From: a virus
Taxonomy: Duplodnaviria; Caudoviricetes
Length of the DNA stretch: 30,043 nt
Virus record (IMG/VR): IMGVR_UViG_3300043414_000885
Coordinates: 1 to 30,043 of that record
Direction: 5' to 3' (one strand)
Positions 2,196 to 20,304 of the stretch are shown here, one piece after another. The position numbers and the translations under genes were made by a program. The notes beneath the pieces are model-generated. The model was given only the letters and a program-made list of their open reading frames with translations, had not been told where the DNA came from and made no database searches. The number at the start of each line of letters is the position of its first letter. The stretch's first letter is position 1.

Positions 2196-3587
2196 ATGGC
2201 CGAACCGTATTCTCCTGAGTGGTGGGCTGATCGCCTGACCCGCCAGCTCGCCGGCCAGCGGTCACGCATCGAGCGGCTTGAGCGGTACTACGCCGGCCGC
2301 ACCCCACTCGCGTATGCGACATCCCGGTTCCGTCAGGAGTTCGGGCAGCTGCTGTCAGCGATCAACGACAACTGGTGTCAGCTCGTGGTGTCCGCTGTCG
2401 AGGAACGACTGGACGTGACCGGATTCCGCCTGGGTGACGATGAGTCTGCTGACCGTGAGGCGTGGGCGATCTGGTCGGCGAACAACATGGCCGAGGATTC
2501 CCAGGTCGGTCACACCGAAGCACTCAAGGTCGGCGAAGCTCACGCGATCGTGTGGCGCCCCGATCCGGACCGGGCCCCGGTGATCACGATCGAGCATCCA
2601 CTCCATGTGTGTGTCGAGCTGGACCCGGAGAACCGGTCACGACGTCTGGCGGCCGTCAAGGCATGGCGCGATGAACGTCTCGGTCATGTCTGCACGGTCT
2701 ACCTGCCCGATGGGATCTACAAGTTCCGGCGCGGCCGTAAAGGCTGGGAACCGCGTCTGGTCGACGGTGAGCCGTGGCCCGTCGAGAATCCGTGGGGTGT
2801 CGTCCCGGTCGTTCCGCTGTTCAACCGGCCCGGCCTGCTCGAGCAGTCGGCCTCCGAGATCGAGAACATCCTCTCGAAGCAGGACATGATCAACAAGCTG
2901 CTGGCTGACATGATCGTCGCCGCCGAGTACGGCGCGTTTCGTCAGCGATGGGCGACCGGCGTCGAGATCCCTGAGGACTCAGACGGGGACGGCCAACCGT
3001 CGGAGCAGTTCATCTCGGCTGTCAACCGGCTGTGGGCGGTCGGGGCTCCCGACGCCAAGTTCGGCGAGTTCGGCCAGACCGACCTGGACAGCTACACCAA
3101 AGCGATCGTCATGCTGGTGCAGCACATCGCGTCGCAGACAGCGACCCCGCCGCACTATCTGCTGAACTCGGGCGTGATGCCATCCGGCGAGTCGCTCCGG
3201 GCCGCTGAGGCACCACTCGTCGCCAAAGCCCGTCGGAAACAGCGGGTGTTCGGCGCGTCATGGTCCGAGGTGATGCGCCTAGCGCTGCTGATGCAGGGCC
3301 GGGAACTGCCGGTCGGGACCACGATCTCGACGGTGTGGGCAGACCCGGAATCTCGCACCGAGTCCGAACACGTCGATGCCGTGATGAAGATGAAGAGCCT
3401 CGATGTCCCGGTGCAGCAACTCTGGGAGCTGCTCGGGTTCACGCCGCAACAGATCGAGCGGTTCAAGTTGATGCGCGTCGATGACGCGTTGCAGCAGCTG
3501 CTGGCATCACCGGCAGTGACCCCGGGCGGATCGGGTGTGGCATCCGCCGCCGGCGGTGTCCAGGAGCAGCCAGCTCAGGTCCTGTGA
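2196..3587 (+). CDS. Portal protein (SPP1 gp6-like)
   Basis: Follows terL; YYAG, NWCQLVV..VEERL.V.GF, VPVVP..NRP, SGESLRAAE.PL..K motifs. ATG at 2196 (GTG at 2193 is an alternative start). Confidence 0.93.
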   Translation: MAEPYSPEWWADRLTRQLAGQRSRIERLERYYAGRTPLAYATSRFRQEFGQLLSAINDNWCQLVVSAVEERLDVTGFRLGDDESADREAWAIWSANNMAEDSQVGHTEALKVGEAHAIVWRPDPDRAPVITIEHPLHVCVELDPENRSRRLAAVKAWRDERLGHVCTVYLPDGIYKFRRGRKGWEPRLVDGEPWPVENPWGVVPVVPLFNRPGLLEQSASEIENILSKQDMINKLLADMIVAAEYGAFRQRWATGVEIPEDSDGDGQPSEQFISAVNRLWAVGAPDAKFGEFGQTDLDSYTKAIVMLVQHIASQTATPPHYLLNSGVMPSGESLRAAEAPLVAKARRKQRVFGASWSEVMRLALLMQGRELPVGTTISTVWADPESRTESEHVDAVMKMKSLDVPVQQLWELLGFTPQQIERFKLMRVDDALQQLLASPAVTPGGSGVASAAGGVQEQPAQVL

Positions 3588-4570
3588 TGCAGGCCACGGA
3601 AGAGCAGCTCGTCGCTCTTGCCCGCCGCCATCAGGGGCAGCTCTTAGCGATCCGTGATCGGACAATCATCACGCTCGACCGGTTATGGGCTGCGCTGGTC
3701 ACGGACCCGACCTCGCTGACCGAAGCCCGCTTCGCCGCAGCTGCCGCACCGATCTTGAATGGTGCAGTGTCAAGCGCCGCTGCCGCAGCGACGACCTACA
3801 CGGCGATGTACGTCGGTGCCGCCACCGGCACCGCTGCAGTCCCAGGGACCTTCACACCGGAAGCGTTCCTGACACCAAGAGGGCTTCTCGCGGTAGATGT
3901 GCTCGCCAAGCCGATCGTCACGATGCGCACCGCGTTGGCTGCCGGCCGACCGTTCCCCGTTGCTCGTGACCTTGGACGGCGACGCCTCGAGCAGATCGCA
4001 TCAACCGATCCGATGCTCGCCGCCCGGGCAGCGACCTCGACAGCGATGCAAGCCGAACCGCGAGTCGTCGGCTACCGGCGGTTGCCGGACAGCTCCGCCT
4101 GCTCGTTTTGTCTGCTGGCTGCAACCCAGCGCTATCACGTCACCGACCTGATGCCGCTCCACACCAGGTGCGGATGCACGACCGCCCCGATCATCGGCAC
4201 GAAAGACCCAGGCCAGGTGATCGATCGGACCACGTTGGCCCGACTCAAGGCCGACGGGGTCATTGACGAAATATCGCTCCGACGCTATATCGCTGACACC
4301 GGTGATGTGGTCCAGACCTATCAGGCCAAGGCCGTGCACTGGGCCGAGCAGGCTCGCACCACCACCGACCAGATCGCCGAGACCCGCTACGCCAAGCGTG
4401 CAGATGAGTGGGCAGCCAAAGCCGACCGACGGTCCGCCCAGCTCGATCGTGCCCGTGGGCAACTCCGTGCCGTGCAATCAGGCCGACTTGAGCGGCTCAC
4501 CGCGGTGCACGACCATGGCGAACTCGGCCCGGTGCTGTATCCGGCCGGAACCCATTTCGAGGCCCTGTGA
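3584..4570 (+). CDS. MuF-like minor head protein
   Basis: Position after portal; GYRR..ACSFC..(A)TQRY and PLHTRCGC Cys/His motifs; ends HGELGPVL as in actinophage homologues. Confidence 0.8.
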   Translation: MMQATEEQLVALARRHQGQLLAIRDRTIITLDRLWAALVTDPTSLTEARFAAAAAPILNGAVSSAAAAATTYTAMYVGAATGTAAVPGTFTPEAFLTPRGLLAVDVLAKPIVTMRTALAAGRPFPVARDLGRRRLEQIASTDPMLAARAATSTAMQAEPRVVGYRRLPDSSACSFCLLAATQRYHVTDLMPLHTRCGCTTAPIIGTKDPGQVIDRTTLARLKADGVIDEISLRRYIADTGDVVQTYQAKAVHWAEQARTTTDQIAETRYAKRADEWAAKADRRSAQLDRARGQLRAVQSGRLERLTAVHDHGELGPVLYPAGTHFEAL

Positions 4571-4626: not shown

Positions 4627-5256
4627 ATGGCACCCACACGCCACACCCAAATCATCAAGTGCATGTTCCGACACCAGGACGACGATTCCAGCGGCGACAC
4701 CGGTGACAGCAGCGGGGATCTCGGCGCCGCCGGGAAAGCTGCGCTCGACGCTGAGCGCCGGGCCCGTAAGGATGCCGAGCGAGCGGCCAAAGCCGCGACG
4801 GATGAAGCAGCCCGCACCAAATCTGAGCTGGAAGCGCTCCGGGTTCAATCGATGACCGCCGACGAAAAGGCGTTCAATGAGCGCATCGCTGCCCGTGAGG
4901 CGGAAATCCGCACCGAGGTCGAAGCCAACGCCGCGAGCCGGATCGCCGCGGCGGAACGCCAGATGCTGTCCGCCCGAGTGCTCGCCAAAGCTGCAGGCCG
5001 ACTCGCCAACCCGGCTGACGCTGCAGCATTCCTCGATCTCGACAGCCTGGAGCGCGATGCTCAGGGGGCTGTCACCGACGACACCGTCCAGGCGGTCGTC
5101 GATGGGCTGTTGAAAGAGCGGCCCTACCTCGCTGCGAAGGCGGGAAACACAGGCTCTGCCGATCAGGGTTCGAGGCGCGACGCCCCAGCCGATCTGCGGG
5201 ACCGCAAGCAGTTGGAATCTGAGCTCGCCAAGTTCGGCGTCCGTCCCCGCGCATGA
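4627..5256 (+). CDS. Capsid scaffolding protein with N-terminal RH-terminated leader
   Basis: AGAAAGGT SD before ATG 4627; acidic linker, LG.AGK.AL.AER..RK coiled coil, LANPADA..FLD and LL..RPYL motifs. Confidence 0.88.
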   Translation: MAPTRHTQIIKCMFRHQDDDSSGDTGDSSGDLGAAGKAALDAERRARKDAERAAKAATDEAARTKSELEALRVQSMTADEKAFNERIAAREAEIRTEVEANAASRIAAAERQMLSARVLAKAAGRLANPADAAAFLDLDSLERDAQGAVTDDTVQAVVDGLLKERPYLAAKAGNTGSADQGSRRDAPADLRDRKQLESELAKFGVRPRA

Positions 5257-5441
5257 TTCGGGCGTCGGTTGTCGAGAGCCACGGAGTCTGGCTGCTGAGA
5301 ATCGCCGGGCACGCCGATCCGTCGGTGTGCGCAGCGGTCACCGCTGTGGAGCAGTCCATGGCGATCTGGCTTGAGCAGCTCGCCGAGCTGCAGCCGGAGC
5401 ACATCACCTTCACCTACTCGCAGGAGACATCACCATCATGA
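5253..5441 (+). CDS. prp: Minimal Prp-like (phage-related ribosomal protease, peptidase C108) cysteine protease
   Basis: IAGHA(H20)..VC(26)AAVTA catalytic signature and C-terminal LEQLAELQPEHITF resembling the Prp L..ia..YP..I tail; ATGA overlaps with both neighbours. Confidence 0.75.
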   Translation: MIRASVVESHGVWLLRIAGHADPSVCAAVTAVEQSMAIWLEQLAELQPEHITFTYSQETSPS

Positions 5442-6757
5442 ACACCACCATCATTCGCCGCACTGCTGTGCGTGCCAGTTTCGACCGTCACGCAGTCAAC
5501 ACGCTGCTGCCGGCCGCTATCCGGGCCATCATCCAGGACGGCCTGCTCGAGGCAGCGTTCGACAATGCGTTGATCCCCGACTTCCTGTTCCCGCGAGCTG
5601 CCGATCTCGAGCAGGTCCCGGGCCAGAAGGGTCAGCGTGTCACCCGGACCCGCACCGGTCTGCTCACCCCGCAGACGACCGCTCTGACCGGCGACATCGC
5701 ATCGGCTGACAGCTACTCGGTCGAGCAGTTCTCCGGCGTGCTCGACCAGTACGGCAACTCGATCGACACGAACATGTTGGGGTCGAGCGTCGCTCAGGCC
5801 TCAAAGTTCGTGCAGGACGTGCAGACGCTCGGCATCAACGCCGGCCAGTCCCTGAACCGGATCGCCCGCAACCGGCTGTACGCCGCGTACGCCGGCGGCC
5901 GCACCTGGGTCCGGACCGCTGATGGCGCTTCGAACACCACGGTCGATGTGCAGACCGTGGACGGGTTCGGCACCGTTCTCGTCAACGGTGTCCCGACCGC
6001 CGTCTCGGCGTCGAACCCGCTGACGATCACGATCGCCGGTGTCGCGAATACCGTGACCGGTGTCGATACAACGAACCGCCGTCTGACGCTCGGCACGGCC
6101 AGCGTCGACACGCTCGGTGCAGCGATCATCGCGGCGAACGCCCCGACGTCGATCCGCCCGAACGCCCGGGCCAGCGCTTACAACCTCATCAGCACGGACA
6201 CCGCCACGGTCGGCTTGTTCTTCGACGCCGTCGCCCGGCTTCGTAACATGAACGTGCCGCCGTTGCCGTCGGGTAACTATCAGGCACACGTCGACCCGTT
6301 CACGATGCGTCAGCTGCTCTCGGACACCGAGTTCCGCCAGGCGTTCCAGTCGCAGGGTCCGTCGGACACCTACGCCAACGGTCGCCTGACCATCTTCGGC
6401 GGCGTCGAGTTCCTACTCAACAACGAGGTCCCGACCGTGACTGGTGACTCGATGACGGTGACGCTCGCCCGCCGCCCGATCGTGTTGGGTGGCGGTTCGC
6501 TGATCGCGATGCCGCTGGAGTCGCAGGGCATGATGCTCGACGGCACCGGGGTGCAGGACGTGCCCGGCATCAGCGTCATCGACGCCGGAACCTCCGGGAT
6601 CCAGGTCGCACTCATCGTGCGTCCCCCGCAGGACCGCCTGCAGCAGGTCGTGTCGAGTTCGTGGGCGTGGACCGGCGACTTCGCTGTCCCGACCGACTCG
6701 CTCGCCAACAGCGACGCTGCGCTGGTGAAGCGCGCCGTCGTGATCGAGCACGCCTGA
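5438..6757 (+). CDS. Major capsid protein (HK97 fold inferred) with N-terminal leader and beta-rich insertion
   Basis: 439 aa after scaffold; strongly biased codons; CAGGAG SD; Y.AHVDP...QL, G.L..FGGVEF and terminal RAVVIEHA are typical capsid elements. Confidence 0.9.
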   Translation: MNTTIIRRTAVRASFDRHAVNTLLPAAIRAIIQDGLLEAAFDNALIPDFLFPRAADLEQVPGQKGQRVTRTRTGLLTPQTTALTGDIASADSYSVEQFSGVLDQYGNSIDTNMLGSSVAQASKFVQDVQTLGINAGQSLNRIARNRLYAAYAGGRTWVRTADGASNTTVDVQTVDGFGTVLVNGVPTAVSASNPLTITIAGVANTVTGVDTTNRRLTLGTASVDTLGAAIIAANAPTSIRPNARASAYNLISTDTATVGLFFDAVARLRNMNVPPLPSGNYQAHVDPFTMRQLLSDTEFRQAFQSQGPSDTYANGRLTIFGGVEFLLNNEVPTVTGDSMTVTLARRPIVLGGGSLIAMPLESQGMMLDGTGVQDVPGISVIDAGTSGIQVALIVRPPQDRLQQVVSSSWAWTGDFAVPTDSLANSDAALVKRAVVIEHA

Positions 6758-6768
6758 CCCACCCGTTC

Positions 6769-6802
6769 GTGCCGGCCCTCGTCTCCAGGCGGGGGTCGGC
6801 AC
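6769..6802 (+). terminator. GC-rich hairpin after the capsid gene (attenuator or mRNA stabiliser)
   Basis: GTGCCGGCCCTCGTC-TCCA-GGCGGGGGTCGGCAC forms a 15-bp stem including G-U pairs; no U tract. Confidence 0.5.
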
Positions 6803-6825
6803 ACCTCGACCCGAAGGAGGTCACA

Positions 6826-7116
6826 ATGGCCAGGAAAGTCATGACAGAGGATCCCAGCGCAGTGGATCCAGCAGTCACCGAGGTCGCCGAGGTCGCCACG
6901 ACGCCCGAAGAGGTCGTCGAGGTCGCCGAGGTCGCCACGACGCCCGAAGAGGTCGCCGAGGTACCCGCCCCGGAGCCCGGGAAGCAGTATGTCGCTCGTG
7001 TGGCGTTCTCGGCGATGGTCGGTTCGCAGCTGTGCACGTTTGCTGCCGGGACCGAGATCGACGCTATGGCTGGCGCTTTGCTGGCTCATGGCGGCGCCCC
7101 GATCGACGTGGTGTGA
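6826..7116 (+). CDS. Small acidic head-associated hypothetical protein
   Basis: AAGGAGG SD then ATG 6826; MARKVMTEDP..., Glu/Val/Ala repeats; lies immediately after the capsid gene. Confidence 0.8.
   Translation: MARKVMTEDPSAVDPAVTEVAEVATTPEEVVEVAEVATTPEEVAEVPAPEPGKQYVARVAFSAMVGSQLCTFAAGTEIDAMAGALLAHGGAPIDVV
6879..6960 (+). repeat. 39-bp in-frame tandem duplication (EVAEVATTPEEV-x twice)
   Basis: CGAGGTCGCCGAGGTCGCCACGACGCCCGAAGAGGTCG at 6879 and again at 6918. Confidence 0.9.
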
Positions 7117-7119
7117 CCA

Positions 7120-7857
7120 GTGGGGCAGACGCTCGTGGCGTGGACCTCGCGCACGCAGCTGCTGCTGCGTGACAGCGGGGCCATCGATGTGGACGCCACG
7201 CTGGTGGCAGAGGTCGGTGTCAAGCCGGCCATCGCCCAGTTCTCCATCGATCGACCGCGGATGGCCGCTGTCGATGTCACAGCGTCTGCCCGTTTTCTGC
7301 CATTCCCGACCGAGGCTCAGGGCTGGATCGAGGGGTTCTCGACCGTGCAGCGGATCGAGGCCCCGGCCGGGCTCGCTGACCCTCGTCCGCTCGCCGACGG
7401 TGACTGGTCAGCGACACGCGATCCGGCGAACGCAGCGGTCGCCAGGATCCTGATCGCTGCTGGTGTGGCTGGCGAGACATGCCGGATCATGTTCACATCG
7501 GCATGGCCGACGCCGACGGCGACAGCAGCCGATGACCTGATCGGATCGATCGGGTTCAACGCCGTCACATCGCTCGCCGCTGCGATGGTCCTGACGGCTC
7601 TGTCCGCCGAAGCAGCACGGGACCGTCAGGGGGCAATGCCCACTGATTTCGTGTCAGGGTCTGATCGGGCCCGCATGTTCTTGGATGCTGCCGCAGCCCA
7701 GCGGGTCATCTATCACACGTTCATCGGTCTCGGGTCGGTCTCTCCGGGGCAGCAGTCAGGGTCCCGGCAGGTGCGGTCCGCTCCGATGGGCAGCGCAGCG
7801 AAGCGGCTGGCCAGCACGGCATCAGCGACCGACCCTCGAGGTGTTCCGTGGACGTAA
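7120..7857 (+). CDS. Putative head-to-tail adaptor
   Basis: Synteny between capsid and tail tube; 245 aa with coding-like GC3. No diagnostic motif recognised. Confidence 0.55.
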   Translation: MGQTLVAWTSRTQLLLRDSGAIDVDATLVAEVGVKPAIAQFSIDRPRMAAVDVTASARFLPFPTEAQGWIEGFSTVQRIEAPAGLADPRPLADGDWSATRDPANAAVARILIAAGVAGETCRIMFTSAWPTPTATAADDLIGSIGFNAVTSLAAAMVLTALSAEAARDRQGAMPTDFVSGSDRARMFLDAAAAQRVIYHTFIGLGSVSPGQQSGSRQVRSAPMGSAAKRLASTASATDPRGVPWT

Positions 7858-8312
7858 AGATTGTGGTGTCCCCCGCATTGCATCGGGCATTGGAGCAGTC
7901 TCTCCACCGGTGCGAGCAGATGGCGCATGACGGTCTGCTCGAGATGGGCAGCGAATGGTTGCGTCACGCCCAACAGGGGGCACGCACAGCCGATTACGCA
8001 GCGTCGATGGCAGTGTCAGACCTGGGGGTCGGCCAGTCCGTCCTGGTCGGCTCGAAGTCGCCGCTCGGCGCGATCCTCGAACGCGGCCGTCACCCAGGCG
8101 CACCGCCACCGGTGCGGTCAATCCAGAAACGGTCTACCAGCGGGCATGATGCTGCCAAGGCCGCAAAAACGGTCGGTGAGCGCGGTACCCGTGGCCGATG
8201 GGTGGTCCGCAAAGCACGCCAGGCTGTCTACGACTCGGGGGCGCAACAGGACATCGCCCGCCGGACGTTGAAGCGCATCACCGAACTCGGTGGCGGCGAT
8301 GGCATCGGCTGA
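7848..8312 (+). CDS. Putative neck / HK97 gp10-like tail completion protein
   Basis: RTADYAAS..V, VGS.SP.GAILERGR.PG..PP and IG/VG.RGT motifs reminiscent of HK97 gp10-like proteins; synteny. Confidence 0.65.
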   Translation: MDVKIVVSPALHRALEQSLHRCEQMAHDGLLEMGSEWLRHAQQGARTADYAASMAVSDLGVGQSVLVGSKSPLGAILERGRHPGAPPPVRSIQKRSTSGHDAAKAAKTVGERGTRGRWVVRKARQAVYDSGAQQDIARRTLKRITELGGGDGIG

Positions 8313-8772
8313 TGTCTCGGCGGTCACCGCCCGGATCGTGACCCGGATCCAGTCCGTGTCCGATGTCGGGCTGGTCTGGGAACATGATGTGTTCTCGCGT
8401 CGGGATCTCCGGCAGATGCTGGTGTCAACCATTGCCGGATCGGCCACGCTGCGCGCCTGGTGGATCACCGGCCCGACGATGTCGGCCCGCAAGCTGGTGC
8501 AACGCCCCGGCGGAAGCATCGAGCGTGTGTGGCGTTACAGCATCCACGGGGTGGCAGGTCTCAGCGATGACGGGGATTCGGTCCTGACGCTGCGCAACCT
8601 GGCGGTGTCGGTCTGCGATGCCATCGATCTCGATGAGACGCTCGGCGGTGCGGCGATCCGCACCGCGCCGTGTGAGTGGGCGATCGCCCCAGAGAACCGG
8701 GCTGCGTTCGCCGGTATCGGCGCCAGCTATGTCGCCATCACTAAGACCGTGACCACGGTCTCGACCCCGTAG
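8299..8772 (+). CDS. Putative tail terminator
   Basis: About 157 aa upstream of the tail tube; I..D.TLGG motif common in tail terminators. Confidence 0.65.
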   Translation: MASADVSAVTARIVTRIQSVSDVGLVWEHDVFSRRDLRQMLVSTIAGSATLRAWWITGPTMSARKLVQRPGGSIERVWRYSIHGVAGLSDDGDSVLTLRNLAVSVCDAIDLDETLGGAAIRTAPCEWAIAPENRAAFAGIGASYVAITKTVTTVSTP

Positions 8773-8780
8773 GAGTGCAC

Positions 8781-9002
8781 GTGCCGAAGCAAGCAGCAGA
8801 ACCACCGATCGCCGGGCCCCGTCGTGCCCGATGGGTCGACGTACAGACCGTCTTTGTGCCCGATCAGGGCATCGTCGCGTATGGCGACGAGATCTGGGTG
8901 TCGAGCGAGCAGCTCGAAGCACCTGAACACCCCACAGTCCCGTGGTCCGATGATTGGGCGGCGGACACGGCAATCGCGGCGCAGGCCGCACAGGAGGGAT
9001 GA
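8781..9002 (+). CDS. Small hypothetical protein
   Basis: AGGAG SD at 8771-8775, GTG 8781; fills the gap before the tail tube. Confidence 0.65.
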   Translation: MPKQAAEPPIAGPRRARWVDVQTVFVPDQGIVAYGDEIWVSSEQLEAPEHPTVPWSDDWAADTAIAAQAAQEG

Positions 9003-9004
9003 CC

Positions 9005-10081
9005 ATGGACCGCACGCAGCCACTGAGAGGCCGGACCGCGGTGCACGCGACGCTGTTGCGTCACGCCTACCCGCGCGCCAGCTCTTCGCTCTCCCATTAT
9101 CTGGGGCTGGCGAAGCAGACAGTCAAGGGCACCGGGGTCGTCCCGACGTTGTTCGTGCCCTATCAGGGGTCGATCGATCTGTCGGCCGGCCAGGATGGCG
9201 ACGATGTCCGCCAGGCCGGGACGGGCACCTATGTGAACCGGACCATGAAAACGAAGCACGATCCGTCGGGCGCGTTCGGGATGGCGGCCCGCCCGAAGAC
9301 GCTGGCACAGCTCGTCGCATGGTTCCTCGGCGCCGATGCGTCGGTGGCGTCCGGGTCGTTGTGGGATCACACGGCCACCCCAGCTGAGGCGAACACGTGG
9401 CTGACGGTCGAGCAGGCCGCCGGTGTGTCCGGCGACATCATCGAGCGGTACACCGACGCGTTGCTGACCTCGTTGTCGTTGTCAACCGACGGCAACGGCG
9501 ACCTGATGACCCAGTTCGGCTGGATGGCACTCACCCCGGGATGGCAGAGCACAGCAGCAACCCCGACCTACGAGACCGGGGTGTCGGGAACATCGCCTGG
9601 CGGTCCGTATCGGGCCACCGAGGCGACCTACACGGTCGACGGGTCGGCCGCGACGAACGTGCAGTCATGGTCGGTCGATCTCGAATGGAAGCTCGATGAC
9701 GACATCCGGCTCTCCAAGGTCACCCGCGCTGACGCGTTGAAGCTGGAACTGACCGGGAAGGTCAAGATCAAGCAATTGCTCGACGCTGCTGCCGCGACCG
9801 AGTACCGGAAAATCATCTACGGCTCGACATCAGGCACCGCAGCCGCGAAGAACTTCTTCCAGGGCGGATCCTGGGCGGTCGTGTTCGATAACGGGCTGGC
9901 GACCACGAACCAGCGGACGTTGTCGATCTCGTGCCCGGTGATCGACTGGAAAGACGCGCCGTACACGGCGTTGAACCCGGACGGCGAGACGATGTACATC
10001 GAACGTGAAGGCGTGATCCGCAAGGACTCGGGGGCGTTCGTCACCATCGTGTCGAAGACCTCCGACGCTGTGGCCTACTGA
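9005..10081 (+). CDS. Major tail tube protein with N-terminal RH-terminated leader
   Basis: CAGGAGG SD; YLGLAKQTVKGT near the N terminus is typical of phage tail tube proteins; directly precedes the chaperone and tape measure genes. Confidence 0.85.
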   Translation: MDRTQPLRGRTAVHATLLRHAYPRASSSLSHYLGLAKQTVKGTGVVPTLFVPYQGSIDLSAGQDGDDVRQAGTGTYVNRTMKTKHDPSGAFGMAARPKTLAQLVAWFLGADASVASGSLWDHTATPAEANTWLTVEQAAGVSGDIIERYTDALLTSLSLSTDGNGDLMTQFGWMALTPGWQSTAATPTYETGVSGTSPGGPYRATEATYTVDGSAATNVQSWSVDLEWKLDDDIRLSKVTRADALKLELTGKVKIKQLLDAAAATEYRKIIYGSTSGTAAAKNFFQGGSWAVVFDNGLATTNQRTLSISCPVIDWKDAPYTALNPDGETMYIEREGVIRKDSGAFVTIVSKTSDAVAY

Positions 10082-10446
10082 TGTTGGATCGGGCCAAACT
10101 TGACCGGCTGATCGCGTCTGCGGTCCACCCGGAAATTGTGCGTGTCGATCTTCCAGTGATCGGTGAGACCGTGTCGCTGCGACGCCCGAACCGGGCTGAA
10201 CTCACCCGGATCATTGCTGCTGCCGGCACCGACCTCGACTTCAACGCTCAAGTCATGGTTGGAGTGTTGCGGTTCGCGATGGTCGATGATGCGGGGGTCC
10301 CGTTGCTGCGGTCCTTCGATGAGGCGGCGCAGGTCATGAACAGCTTCGCTGATGGCGACATCGCTGTGTTGCTCGAGCATCTCCAGCAGCTGTTCACCGC
10401 GGCCGCTGATGGTGGCGGGGATGTCGATCTGGGAAAAGCGCTCTAA
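10081..10446 (+). CDS. Tail assembly chaperone (lambda gpG equivalent)
   Basis: Between tail tube and TMP; ends ...DLGKAL across a slippery heptamer. Confidence 0.85.
   Translation: MLDRAKLDRLIASAVHPEIVRVDLPVIGETVSLRRPNRAELTRIIAAAGTDLDFNAQVMVGVLRFAMVDDAGVPLLRSFDEAAQVMNSFADGDIAVLLEHLQQLFTAAADGGGDVDLGKAL
10431..10437 (+). other. Programmed -1 ribosomal frameshift site G GGA AAA
   Basis: X XXY YYZ heptamer in the correct phase (CTG GGA AAA) of the chaperone ORF. Confidence 0.85.
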
Positions 10447-10697
10447 GAGCGAACCCGGATCTCCTCGCGCTGTATCACGTCTGCTACGAGCTGGGCCGGT
10501 TCCCGGCCGAGCTGCCATCCGGCCTCCCAGACGAGCAGCTGATCCTGATGCTGGCATACCTGTCAGTGCGTCAGGAAGAGAACGACAACGATCGCAGAGG
10601 GCAGGTGTCGAGCCGGGCACGGTCCGCTGAGGCGGAGCTGCAGTCCGCCGAGGCCGCTGCATGGGGTTCGACCCGAAAGGAGGTGCAGCGTGGCTGA
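10431..10697 (+). CDS. Tail assembly chaperone -1 frame extension (gpGT equivalent; fused to 10081..10437)
   Basis: Hand translation of the -1 frame gives GKSALRANPDLLALYHVCYELGRFPAELPSGLPDEQLILMLAYLSVRQEE...QRG*, open to TGA 10695-10697 and overlapping the TMP start. Absent from the ORF track. Confidence 0.82.
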   Translation, partial: GKSALRANPDLLALYHVCYELGRFPAELPSGLPDEQLILMLAYLSVRQEENDNDRRGQVSSRARSAEAELQSAEAAAWGSTRKEVQRG

Positions 10698-19173: not shown

Positions 19174-20304
19174 ATGGCCGGATCGATTCGACATCTCAAA
19201 TCAGGCGGCTGGCAGCTGCGTGTTGCTGCCGGGTTCGATGACAACGGCCGACGCCGCACCATCGTGGAGACCATCCACGGGTCCCGCCGCACCGCTGAAC
19301 TCCGCCTCGCCGAACTCGTCAACTCAGTCGCGCATGGGGCACGCCCATCAGCGACCCCGCTCGGCCGTGCGCTCGACGCCTACCTGACGAGTGGCCGTCT
19401 CGCCCGCCAAACAGTCGACAAGGCCACCGCAGTGCTGCGCCACCTCCCCAGCTCGTGGCGGGCCCGGCCGGTAGCGAAGATCCGCCCGCAGGATGTCGAG
19501 GCGTTTTATGCGGGTCTCGTTGCCGCCGGCGTTGGAGTGGTCACGATCCGGAACATGCACGATGTGCTCCGAGCATCATGCTCGGCGTTGGAACGGTTCG
19601 GCGAGATCGACCGGAACCCGTTCCGGCTCGCCCGCCCGCCGGCCCAGCCCCGGTCCCGGGCCACAGCCCCGACACCCGATCAGGTCCAGGAGCTGATCGC
19701 AGCAGCAGCAGCGAACCCGATGCACGCCCTCTGGCTGCGCCTCCACATGTGCACAGGGGCACGACGTGGTGAGGTCCTCGCTATCCGATGGTCATCGATT
19801 GTGGCTGGCCGGGTGCTGATCTCGGCATCGATCGAACGTGACCGGCAGGTCAAGGGGACCAAGACCGGCCGCGACCGGTGGGTCACGATCGACGACGTGA
19901 CACTTCGGATGATCAGCCGGTGGCAGCGCTCGCAACGCGAACGGGCGTTGCAGTGTGGCGTGACGATCGCTTCTGACCCGTGGCTCATCTCGAGCGCAGC
20001 GGATTCCGGGATGCCATGGCGGCCAGATGTCGCCACCCAGCTGTTCGCCCGCCTGTGCACCCGGGCCGGGCTGGTCACGACCCGCAAGGGCGCCACCGGC
20101 CGTCTGGTGCACAGCCCCGTCATCCGACTGCACGATCTCCGTCACGGTGCAGCGAGCGAGCTGCTCGCCGCCGGCCTCGATGTGGTCACCGTCGCGAAAC
20201 GGCTCGGGCACGCGAACCCGCGCACCACCCTCGCGATCTACGGCCATGTCATCGAGGGCCAGGACGCCAAAGCAGCACAAATCCTGGCCGACCGGCTCGC
20301 CTGA
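19174..20304 (+). CDS. int: Tyrosine integrase
   Basis: GGAGG SD; N-terminal arm-binding domain GSIR...WQLRV; catalytic TGARRGE, K, HDLRH, LGHA and Y (TLAIYGH). Confidence 0.97.
   Translation: MAGSIRHLKSGGWQLRVAAGFDDNGRRRTIVETIHGSRRTAELRLAELVNSVAHGARPSATPLGRALDAYLTSGRLARQTVDKATAVLRHLPSSWRARPVAKIRPQDVEAFYAGLVAAGVGVVTIRNMHDVLRASCSALERFGEIDRNPFRLARPPAQPRSRATAPTPDQVQELIAAAAANPMHALWLRLHMCTGARRGEVLAIRWSSIVAGRVLISASIERDRQVKGTKTGRDRWVTIDDVTLRMISRWQRSQRERALQCGVTIASDPWLISSAADSGMPWRPDVATQLFARLCTRAGLVTTRKGATGRLVHSPVIRLHDLRHGAASELLAAGLDVVTVAKRLGHANPRTTLAIYGHVIEGQDAKAAQILADRLA

What the first reader, a model, noticed from the sequence alone, without database searches (positions are those of the whole stretch)
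4627..9067. Candidate virion-wide maturation system: phage Prp protease plus one shared RH-terminated leader on scaffold, capsid AND tail tube
Seen in sequence: three abundant structural proteins begin with a 16-20 aa basic leader that aligns without gaps on an Arg-His. Capsid: MNTTIIR-RTAVRASFDRH-AVN. Tail tube: MDRTQPLRG-RTAVHATLLRH-AYP. Scaffold: MAPTR-HTQIIKCMFRH-QDD. Capsid and tail share 8 of 12 residues (RTAVxA[ST][FL]xRHA), and all three fit T-x-[VI]-x-x-[STC]-[FLM]-x-R-H. Synonymous codons differ between the capsid and tail copies, so the conservation looks protein-level. A Prp-type protease gene is translationally coupled between scaffold and capsid. Established: Prp removes the N-terminal extension of ribosomal protein L27 in Firmicutes, and host Prp cleaves a similar motif on S. 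aureus phage 80alpha scaffold and capsid. From memory, the pneumococcal phage Cp-1 Prp cleaves its head protein after a His. Inference: this phage carries its own Prp with a private recognition motif and cuts after RH. That would license both head and tail-tube assembly. I do not know of a described case of Prp processing a tail tube protein.
Basis: partly seen in the sequence, partly recalled or inferred. Interest (0 to 1): 0.9.

Follow-up and report, generated by a model that had tools for sequence, protein, structure and literature searches.

The report
Half-size phage protease tags three proteins
This uncultured phage encodes a 62-residue, half-length relative of the bacterial protease Prp, and its scaffold, capsid and tail-tube proteins all begin with a matching short leader ending in Arg-His that the enzyme likely cuts off, a self-contained variant of a known phage maturation scheme that has not been tested at the bench.

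Summary
Observation confirmed. A motif profile built from relatives ranks the three RH sites 1st, 2nd and 3rd of 48,602 12-mers in the window. The protease gene between scaffold and capsid is only 62 aa, about half of a canonical Prp, but keeps Gly-His...Cys.

Among 196 capsid loci, 141 of 141 with the mini-Prp have a capsid leader (136 end in RH). None of 50 Prp-less loci with enough flank has an RH leader. On the capsid tree this is one evolutionary gain.

Of 72 tail-tube homologues, 14 carry a leader, all ending in RH at the position where 55 of the other 58 have their start Met. The tail leader is a late, labile add-on: present in 4 of 5 Prp+ loci, at least 3 changes on the tree.

Cleavage after RH is likely. 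'Licensing of head and tail assembly' is not supported: in phage 80alpha cleavage is dispensable. Precedents exist: Cp-1's own Prp cuts after His48, and an L27-type motif on the phi13 major tail protein is in print. The scan noted the half-size enzyme and Prp-tagged tail tubes before, on other DNA. New variant of a known kind.

The parts
4627..5256 (+). Scaffolding protein (209 aa)
   Evidence: PF06810 E=8e-6, phrog_4708 E=1e-19
4627..4674 (+). Scaffold leader, 16 aa ending in RH, followed by an acidic linker; predicted cut after His16
   Evidence: rank 3 of 48,602; equivalent H/F-ended leader in 124 of 127 Prp+ scaffolds
5253..5441 (+). Half-size Prp-like cysteine protease (62 aa; Gly19-His20, Cys26, Thr30), ATGA overlaps at both ends
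   Evidence: PF04327 E=1e-4, below cut-off; 26 of 26 aligned relatives hit PF04327; hhalign to Cp-1 orf13 probability 88.5%; AlphaFold2 pLDDT 94.8, strand-strand-helix
5438..6757 (+). Major capsid protein (439 aa; phrog_1357, weak N4-gp56-type hit)
5438..5491 (+). Capsid leader, 18 aa ending in RH; predicted cut after His18
   Evidence: R17 and H18 invariant in 25 close capsids; leaderless homologues begin within a few residues of this register
9005..10081 (+). Tail tube protein (358 aa)
   Evidence: PF18906 above cut-off; position before the predicted chaperone gene and the tape measure gene
9005..9064 (+). Tail-tube leader, 20 aa ending in RH; predicted cut after His20
   Evidence: 14 of 14 leader-bearing homologues end in RH at the position where 55 of 58 leaderless ones have their start Met; rank 1 of 48,602
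3584..4570 (+). VG15-family head gene labelled 'head maturation protease' in PHROGs; rival candidate enzyme, not favoured

Best explanation
The phage's 62-residue Prp-like protein is likely an active His-Cys cysteine protease that likely removes the N-terminal leaders of scaffold, capsid and tail tube by cutting after Arg-His. Shown from sequence: enzyme gene and leaders entered this capsid family together and are kept together, and the leader ends where the leaderless ancestral protein begins. Inferred: the half-size chain (strand-strand-helix plus a predicted last strand) oligomerises to rebuild the Prp sandwich and reads a hydrophobic P4 plus Arg-His at P2-P1. Scaffold and capsid are the original substrates. 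The tail tube was recruited later, probably by copying the leader from the capsid gene, and some relatives lost it again. The leader more likely serves folding, timing or chaperoning of self-assembling proteins, with cutting as clean-up that restores the native N-terminus, than acting as a strict licence for assembly. My odds: scaffold and capsid cut after RH 0.85; tail tube also cut 0.7; cutting essential for tail assembly 0.3.
For: Catalytic residues: 128 of 130 distinct mini-Prps have GH...C, all 128 with Ser/Thr at C+4 (the essential Ser38 position of S. aureus Prp); the 2 exceptions are a contig-edge fragment and an apparent frameshift. Linkage: 141 of 141 Prp+ capsids have a leader, 136 ending RH; 0 of 50 Prp-less loci with over 400 nt upstream have an RH leader. 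Scaffolds: 124 of 127 (RH 110, RF 9, other 5). Motif variants are shared within genomes: capsid-scaffold identity 234 against 191.7 shuffled, 0 of 20,000 shuffles as high, 47 non-redundant loci; deviant motifs mostly sit on long Prp branches. Tail register; at least two separate RH clades on the tail tree. P1 assignment: His/Phe interchange at that position, Phe is P1 in L27, His48 is the last residue removed in Cp-1. In 5 of 5 actinobacterial lysogen genomes tested the only PF04327 match is the prophage gene (positions compared). The rival VG15 gene is absent in L049 and L281, which keep Prp and leaders, and present in L218 and L229, which lack both.
Against: No cleavage measured. The Prp-leader link is one phylogenetic event (1 change on a 75-row quick tree, support 92), so the counts are not independent. 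The protein lacks half of the canonical C108 fold and scores below the Pfam cut-off. P1' is Pro in most close relatives and Asp in most actinophage relatives, while known Prp substrates have small P1' residues. Tail leader absent in Prp+ L002 (in-frame stop two codons upstream) and in 58 of 72 homologues, most of which have no known genomic context. In-genome capsid-tail similarity is only p=0.058 on the 5 sure pairs (0.004 with 4 more pairs guessed from contig length). In the conserved WF-motif core the capsid-scaffold excess is small (175 against 168; 840 of 20,000 shuffles as high). In 80alpha, cleavage of capsid and scaffold is dispensable. The window's host is unknown.
Confidence: 0.72

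Rival explanations
1. The enzyme cuts scaffold and capsid only. The tail leader is a by-product of copying the capsid gene's 5' end (ribosome-binding site plus leader) and is tolerated, cut or not.
For: Tail leader is derived and labile: 6 changes, 3 forced by well-supported branches. Codons are identical at 8 of 8 shared residues in L004. Two tail leaders carry the same kind of hydrophobic segment as capsid leaders.
Against: All 14 leaders join at the exact Met position and keep RH while the rest of the leader diverges. In the window 4 of 7 shared residues differ at synonymous sites. All 3 Prp-less loci with this tail tube and enough context are leaderless.
Confidence: 0.17
2. The leaders are binding tags, and the half-size Prp acts as a peptide-binding chaperone that cuts slowly or not at all.
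For: Half fold. A chaperone role is proposed for S. aureus Prp. In 80alpha the scaffold leader is needed but its cleavage is not. Pro or Asp at P1' is unusual for Prp.
Against: His, Cys and the C+4 hydroxyl residue are kept in 128 of 130 sequences. The exact junction with the ancestral N-terminus is what removal predicts.
Confidence: 0.07
3. Another protease makes the cut: the upstream VG15 gene (3584-4570, labelled head maturation protease) or a host enzyme.
For: Within this capsid family VG15 co-occurs almost as well: 111 of 113 Prp+ loci, 0 of 43 Prp-less loci with at least 3 kb upstream.
Against: L049 and L281 run portal to scaffold with no VG15 and keep Prp and leaders. L218 and L229 have VG15 with no Prp and no leaders. 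No host Prp in 5 of 5 lysogen genomes tested.
Confidence: 0.04

Closest known systems
Streptococcus phage Cp-1 protease (orf13; MEROPS clan CR)
   Same: Phage-encoded Prp-type enzyme with GH...C (hhalign probability 88.5% over 42 columns). It removes 48 residues from the major head protein (PMC12445089), and residue 48 is His.
   Different: 104 aa, full length. Podovirus, gene distant from the head gene. One substrate in the texts I saw, and no similar leader visible on its scaffold. Site is ARINH, not an RH motif.
Staphylococcus aureus Prp (MEROPS C108, PF04327) acting on L27 and on phage 80alpha capsid and scaffold
   Same: His-Cys dyad, Gly before His, hydroxyl residue at C+4; one shared leader on scaffold and capsid; hydrophobic P4 (and P6 in the actinophage relatives).
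   Different: Host-encoded with a seven-element fold. Cuts F|A. Here the enzyme is phage-encoded and 62 aa, the motif ends in RH, and the Phe42 position is Gln in 116 of 128.
Staphylococcus phage phi13 major tail protein with an L27-type motif
   Same: A Prp-type leader on a tail tube (PMC5744158; record checked).
   Different: Host-type motif; no Prp annotated among the 19 genes of the region fetched; cleavage not shown in the passages I saw.
Streptomyces phage Kromp gp5-gp6-gp7
   Same: Same scaffold, 62-aa 'protease', capsid layout; both structural proteins have RH-ended leaders. Culturable test system.
   Different: WFxLxRH motif; tail tube of another family with no leader. Annotation only; I found no study of it.

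Membership tests
Prp / MEROPS C108 (PF04327) | Gly-His ... Cys catalytic dyad with Ser/Thr four residues after Cys | tested here: met
   G19-H20, C26, T30; 128 of 130 relatives
Prp / MEROPS C108 (PF04327) | [quoted passage not shown] | tested here: not met
   62 aa; AlphaFold2 gives two strands and one helix (pLDDT 94.8); 134 of 139 relatives measure about 60-69 aa. It works like Prp but is not a canonical C108 member.
Prp / MEROPS C108 (PF04327) | Pfam gathering score of 27 bits | tested here: not met
   22.9 bits for this protein; five actinophage relatives pass at 27.6-33.2
Prp / MEROPS C108 (PF04327) | Structural likeness to solved Prps | tested here: inconclusive
   Single-sequence model only: VIA Z 3.8 to 2g0i (N-terminal half, rmsd 3.4, 57 aligned) and Z 3.7 to 2idl (C-terminal half, rmsd 3.0, 58 aligned), tied with unrelated folds. 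Profile search hits 2g0i E=0.002 and 1s12 E=0.02.
Prp / MEROPS C108 (PF04327) | Homodimer binding the substrate at the dimer interface | not tested
Prp / MEROPS C108 (PF04327) | Cys-dependent removal of an N-terminal extension | not testable with these tools
   Needs a bench assay; only comparative evidence here
Cellular L27-processing Prp | Gene between rplU and rpmA; L27-type LQ[FL]F|A substrate motif | tested here: not met
   Gene lies between scaffold and capsid; motif ends in RH (cellular context from PMC12324487)
Cp-1-type phage-encoded clan CR head protease | Phage-encoded Prp homologue with a capsid leader ending in His | tested here: met
   the cleavage itself is inferred

The most novel reading that the evidence does not exclude
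A minimal 62-aa half-Prp, equal to one repeat of the Prp fold and possibly the building block of the family, is an active protease with a private RH motif. Phages move its leader as a portable cassette onto capsid, scaffold and tail tube. In the sister lineage, where 15 of 25 capsid leaders and 2 tail leaders begin with a membrane-anchor-like hydrophobic segment followed by basic residues, the cut releases membrane-tethered virion precursors. One tiny phage enzyme would then time both head and tail assembly.
Probability: 0.25. Interest if true: 0.8.

Novelty: new variant of a known kind. Interest (0 to 1): 0.55.

Why it matters
Why Prp leaders sit on phage structural proteins is an open question: PMC5744158 calls the role unclear, and host Prp is essential in S. 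aureus, so it cannot simply be deleted. Here the enzyme is a phage gene, the five lysogen genomes tested have no other Prp, a culturable relative exists (Kromp on Streptomyces lividans), and natural variants with and without the tail leader are at hand. The question becomes directly testable. If active, a 62-aa sequence-specific protease would be unusually small and would bear on how the Prp fold arose.

Tried and rejected
Foldseek with the single-sequence model gave no match at E<=0.001; the better alignment-based model could not be searched because the queue was full. tblastn of the 62-aa protein against annotated phages found nothing, although Kromp has the gene. The first genome scan with the single capsid found nothing. 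The first permutation test had roughly a third of 48 scaffold sites mis-registered and was replaced, which dropped 3 of 127 loci (L045, L078, L260; L260 shows an RH leader by eye). Three 'motif' hits among 41 called Prp-less scaffolds span the start codon and were rejected as false. Five Prp-less capsid loci with under 400 nt upstream were left out of the linkage count; one of them (L041) has an RH leader and is cut off 88 nt upstream. Four capsid-tail pairs were matched only by longest-contig length and are tentative. Sequencing runs: no RNA holder listed. A search for further substrates found none: the profile gave no further high-scoring N-terminal site in the window or in five sister contigs, and a pattern scan of Prp+ loci gave one tail tube and one spurious hit but missed two known tail leaders, so it is not exhaustive. 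PMC12578639 was not relevant. Martin 1998 (Cp-1) and Wall 2015 were not held.
Full report
Setting. The window is a 30,043-base virus record, 84% complete by CheckV. It holds a siphophage-like morphogenesis operon on the + strand (terminase, portal, VG15, scaffold, small ORF, capsid, connectors, tail tube, tape measure) and a tyrosine integrase. The host is unknown. The closest capsids with named hosts are in actinobacterial prophages at 48-59% identity.

Observation. The three leaders are present as described: 16, 18 and 20 residues, each ending in RH. No in-frame start codon lies between the RH and codon 44 in any of the three genes. A profile built from 23 capsid leaders of relatives, leaving out the window's own, ranks the tail, capsid and scaffold sites first, second and third among 48,602 six-frame 12-mers. 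The scaffold site is only slightly above background on its own. In five sister contigs the same kind of profile puts the capsid, scaffold and tail sites on top wherever they exist, and three loci without the enzyme give no high score.

The enzyme. ORF 5253-5441 overlaps both neighbours by ATGA and encodes only 62 residues. It hits Pfam Peptidase_Prp at E=1e-4, below the cut-off; 26 of 26 aligned relatives hit that family. Canonical Prp has seven secondary-structure elements (PMC9405229). The AlphaFold2 model has two strands and one long helix (pLDDT 94.8). A profile search aligns the N-terminal 45 positions to the first half of S. mutans Prp and, weakly, the last positions to its C-terminal end. 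A structure search with a weaker single-sequence model matched one Prp by its first half and another by its second half, at Z 3.7-3.8, no better than unrelated folds. That fits a one-repeat version of an internally duplicated fold, but it is only a lead. Of 130 distinct mini-Prps, 128 have GH...C, all with Ser or Thr at C+4; the position of Phe42, which contacts the Phe-Phe of L27, is Gln in 116 of 128. I infer an active enzyme with a polar S1/S2 pocket.

Linkage with head proteins. Among 196 non-redundant capsid loci, all 141 with a mini-Prp have a capsid leader; 136 end in RH and the rest in RF, SH, LH or AH. None of 50 Prp-less loci with over 400 nt upstream has an RH leader, and their capsids start within a few residues of the predicted cut; 5 loci with short flanks were set aside. 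Scaffolds show the same leader before an acidic linker in 124 of 127 Prp+ loci. On a 75-row quick tree of mature capsids, enzyme plus leader form one side of one branch (support 92). So this is one gain, kept in all 49 Prp+ rows of that tree, not 141 independent tests. Motif variants are shared between capsid and scaffold of the same genome (234 identities against 191.7 shuffled, 0 of 20,000; within the WF core only 175 against 168, 840 of 20,000), and deviant motifs mostly sit on long enzyme branches (few columns, mostly unresolved). Shared ancestry and gene conversion can contribute to this. The VG15 gene co-occurs nearly as well (111 of 113 against 0 of 43), but L049 and L281 lack it and keep enzyme and leaders, and L218 and L229 have it without either. 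In five actinobacterial lysogen genomes the only Prp match is the prophage gene.

The tail tube. Of 72 homologues, 58 are leaderless and 14 have a leader. All 14 end in RH with His at the position where 55 of the 58 leaderless proteins have their start Met; the other three begin one or two residues earlier. Cutting after His would therefore give the same N-terminus that Met removal gives in the others (Met removal before Ala, Pro, Gly or Ser is recalled knowledge). With genomic context, 4 of 5 Prp+ loci have the tail leader (window, L003, L004, L089; not L002) and 0 of 3 Prp-less loci do. The tree needs 6 changes, at least 3 forced, with leaderless forms basal at the midpoint root and two separate RH groups. 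Fifteen tail tubes of the Kromp family in Prp+ loci have no leader. In L004 capsid and tail leaders use identical codons at 8 of 8 shared residues, in the window at 3 of 7. I infer that the leader was copied from the capsid gene and then kept at the protein level.

Mechanism. Shown: anatomy, conservation, register and linkage. Inferred: the enzyme oligomerises, binds the leader and cuts after His. The register rests on His/Phe interchange at that position, on the hydrophobic P4 (and P6) spacing shared with L27, and on Cp-1, where the last of the 48 removed residues is His. Against it, P1' is usually Pro or Asp in relatives, while known Prp substrates have small residues there. Licensing is doubtful: 80alpha with uncleavable capsid or scaffold is viable, although the scaffold leader itself is required, and the tail leader can be lost.

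Sister lineage. Fifteen of 25 close capsids and two tail tubes carry a 17-residue hydrophobic segment at the start of the leader, with net charge 0 to +1 before it and +3 to +6 after it. By the positive-inside rule (recalled) this would tether the precursor to the inner face of the membrane until the cut. The window's own leaders lack this segment.

Comparison with the literature. Phage-encoded Prp (Cp-1), shared scaffold and capsid leaders (80alpha) and a Prp motif on a major tail protein (phi13) are each in print. Nine literature searches found no description of a half-size Prp, an RH motif, or a phage-encoded Prp with a tail substrate. The library lacks most subscription papers, and I saw no supplements. 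What I read: PMC9405229 parts 1, 3 and 4 of 7 plus passages; PMC5744158, PMC12445089, PMC12324487 and PMC12578639 as passages only; Martin 1998 and Wall 2015 not seen. Earlier notes of this scan report the half-size enzyme in actinophage relatives and L27-type Prp leaders on tail tubes in gut phages; they are unchecked and not counted as support.

Verdict. A real feature and a new variant of a known kind. Cleavage of all three leaders after RH by the phage enzyme is likely (0.72), its necessity for assembly is unshown, and interest is 0.55.

Noticed in passing
L001:5914-6033, L002:5908-6036, L089 capsid leader; proteins P0163, P0167: Long hydrophobic, signal-anchor-like segments at the start of 15 of 25 sister capsid leaders and 2 tail-tube leaders, with basic residues after them; possible membrane tethering of precursors.
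   Followed up: partly
L106 and L165, capsid N-terminus: Tandem duplicated leader: two WFxLxRH motifs in series before the mature capsid.
   Followed up: no
L064, L072, L079, L082, L058, L211 scaffold N-termini: Several Prp-less scaffolds of the proteobacterial-type clade start with a different basic-hydrophobic stretch ending near RYM or SYV before a Gly/Pro linker, perhaps a leader for another protease.
   Followed up: no
L051:6432-6803: Mini-Prp split across two frames (frameshift or sequencing error) while capsid and scaffold keep their leaders.
   Followed up: no
L218, L229, L231: The same tail-tube and connector module is joined to unrelated head modules, showing head-tail module exchange.
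   Followed up: partly
window 19174-20304: Tyrosine integrase; the phage is probably temperate.
   Followed up: no
window 10446-10690: Gap between the predicted tail assembly chaperone ORF and the tape measure gene, where a frameshifted chaperone extension would be expected.
   Followed up: no
window 3584-4570: VG15 gene labelled 'head maturation protease' in PHROGs; conserved residues include two Cys pairs and a His, more like a metal-binding minor head protein.
   Followed up: partly
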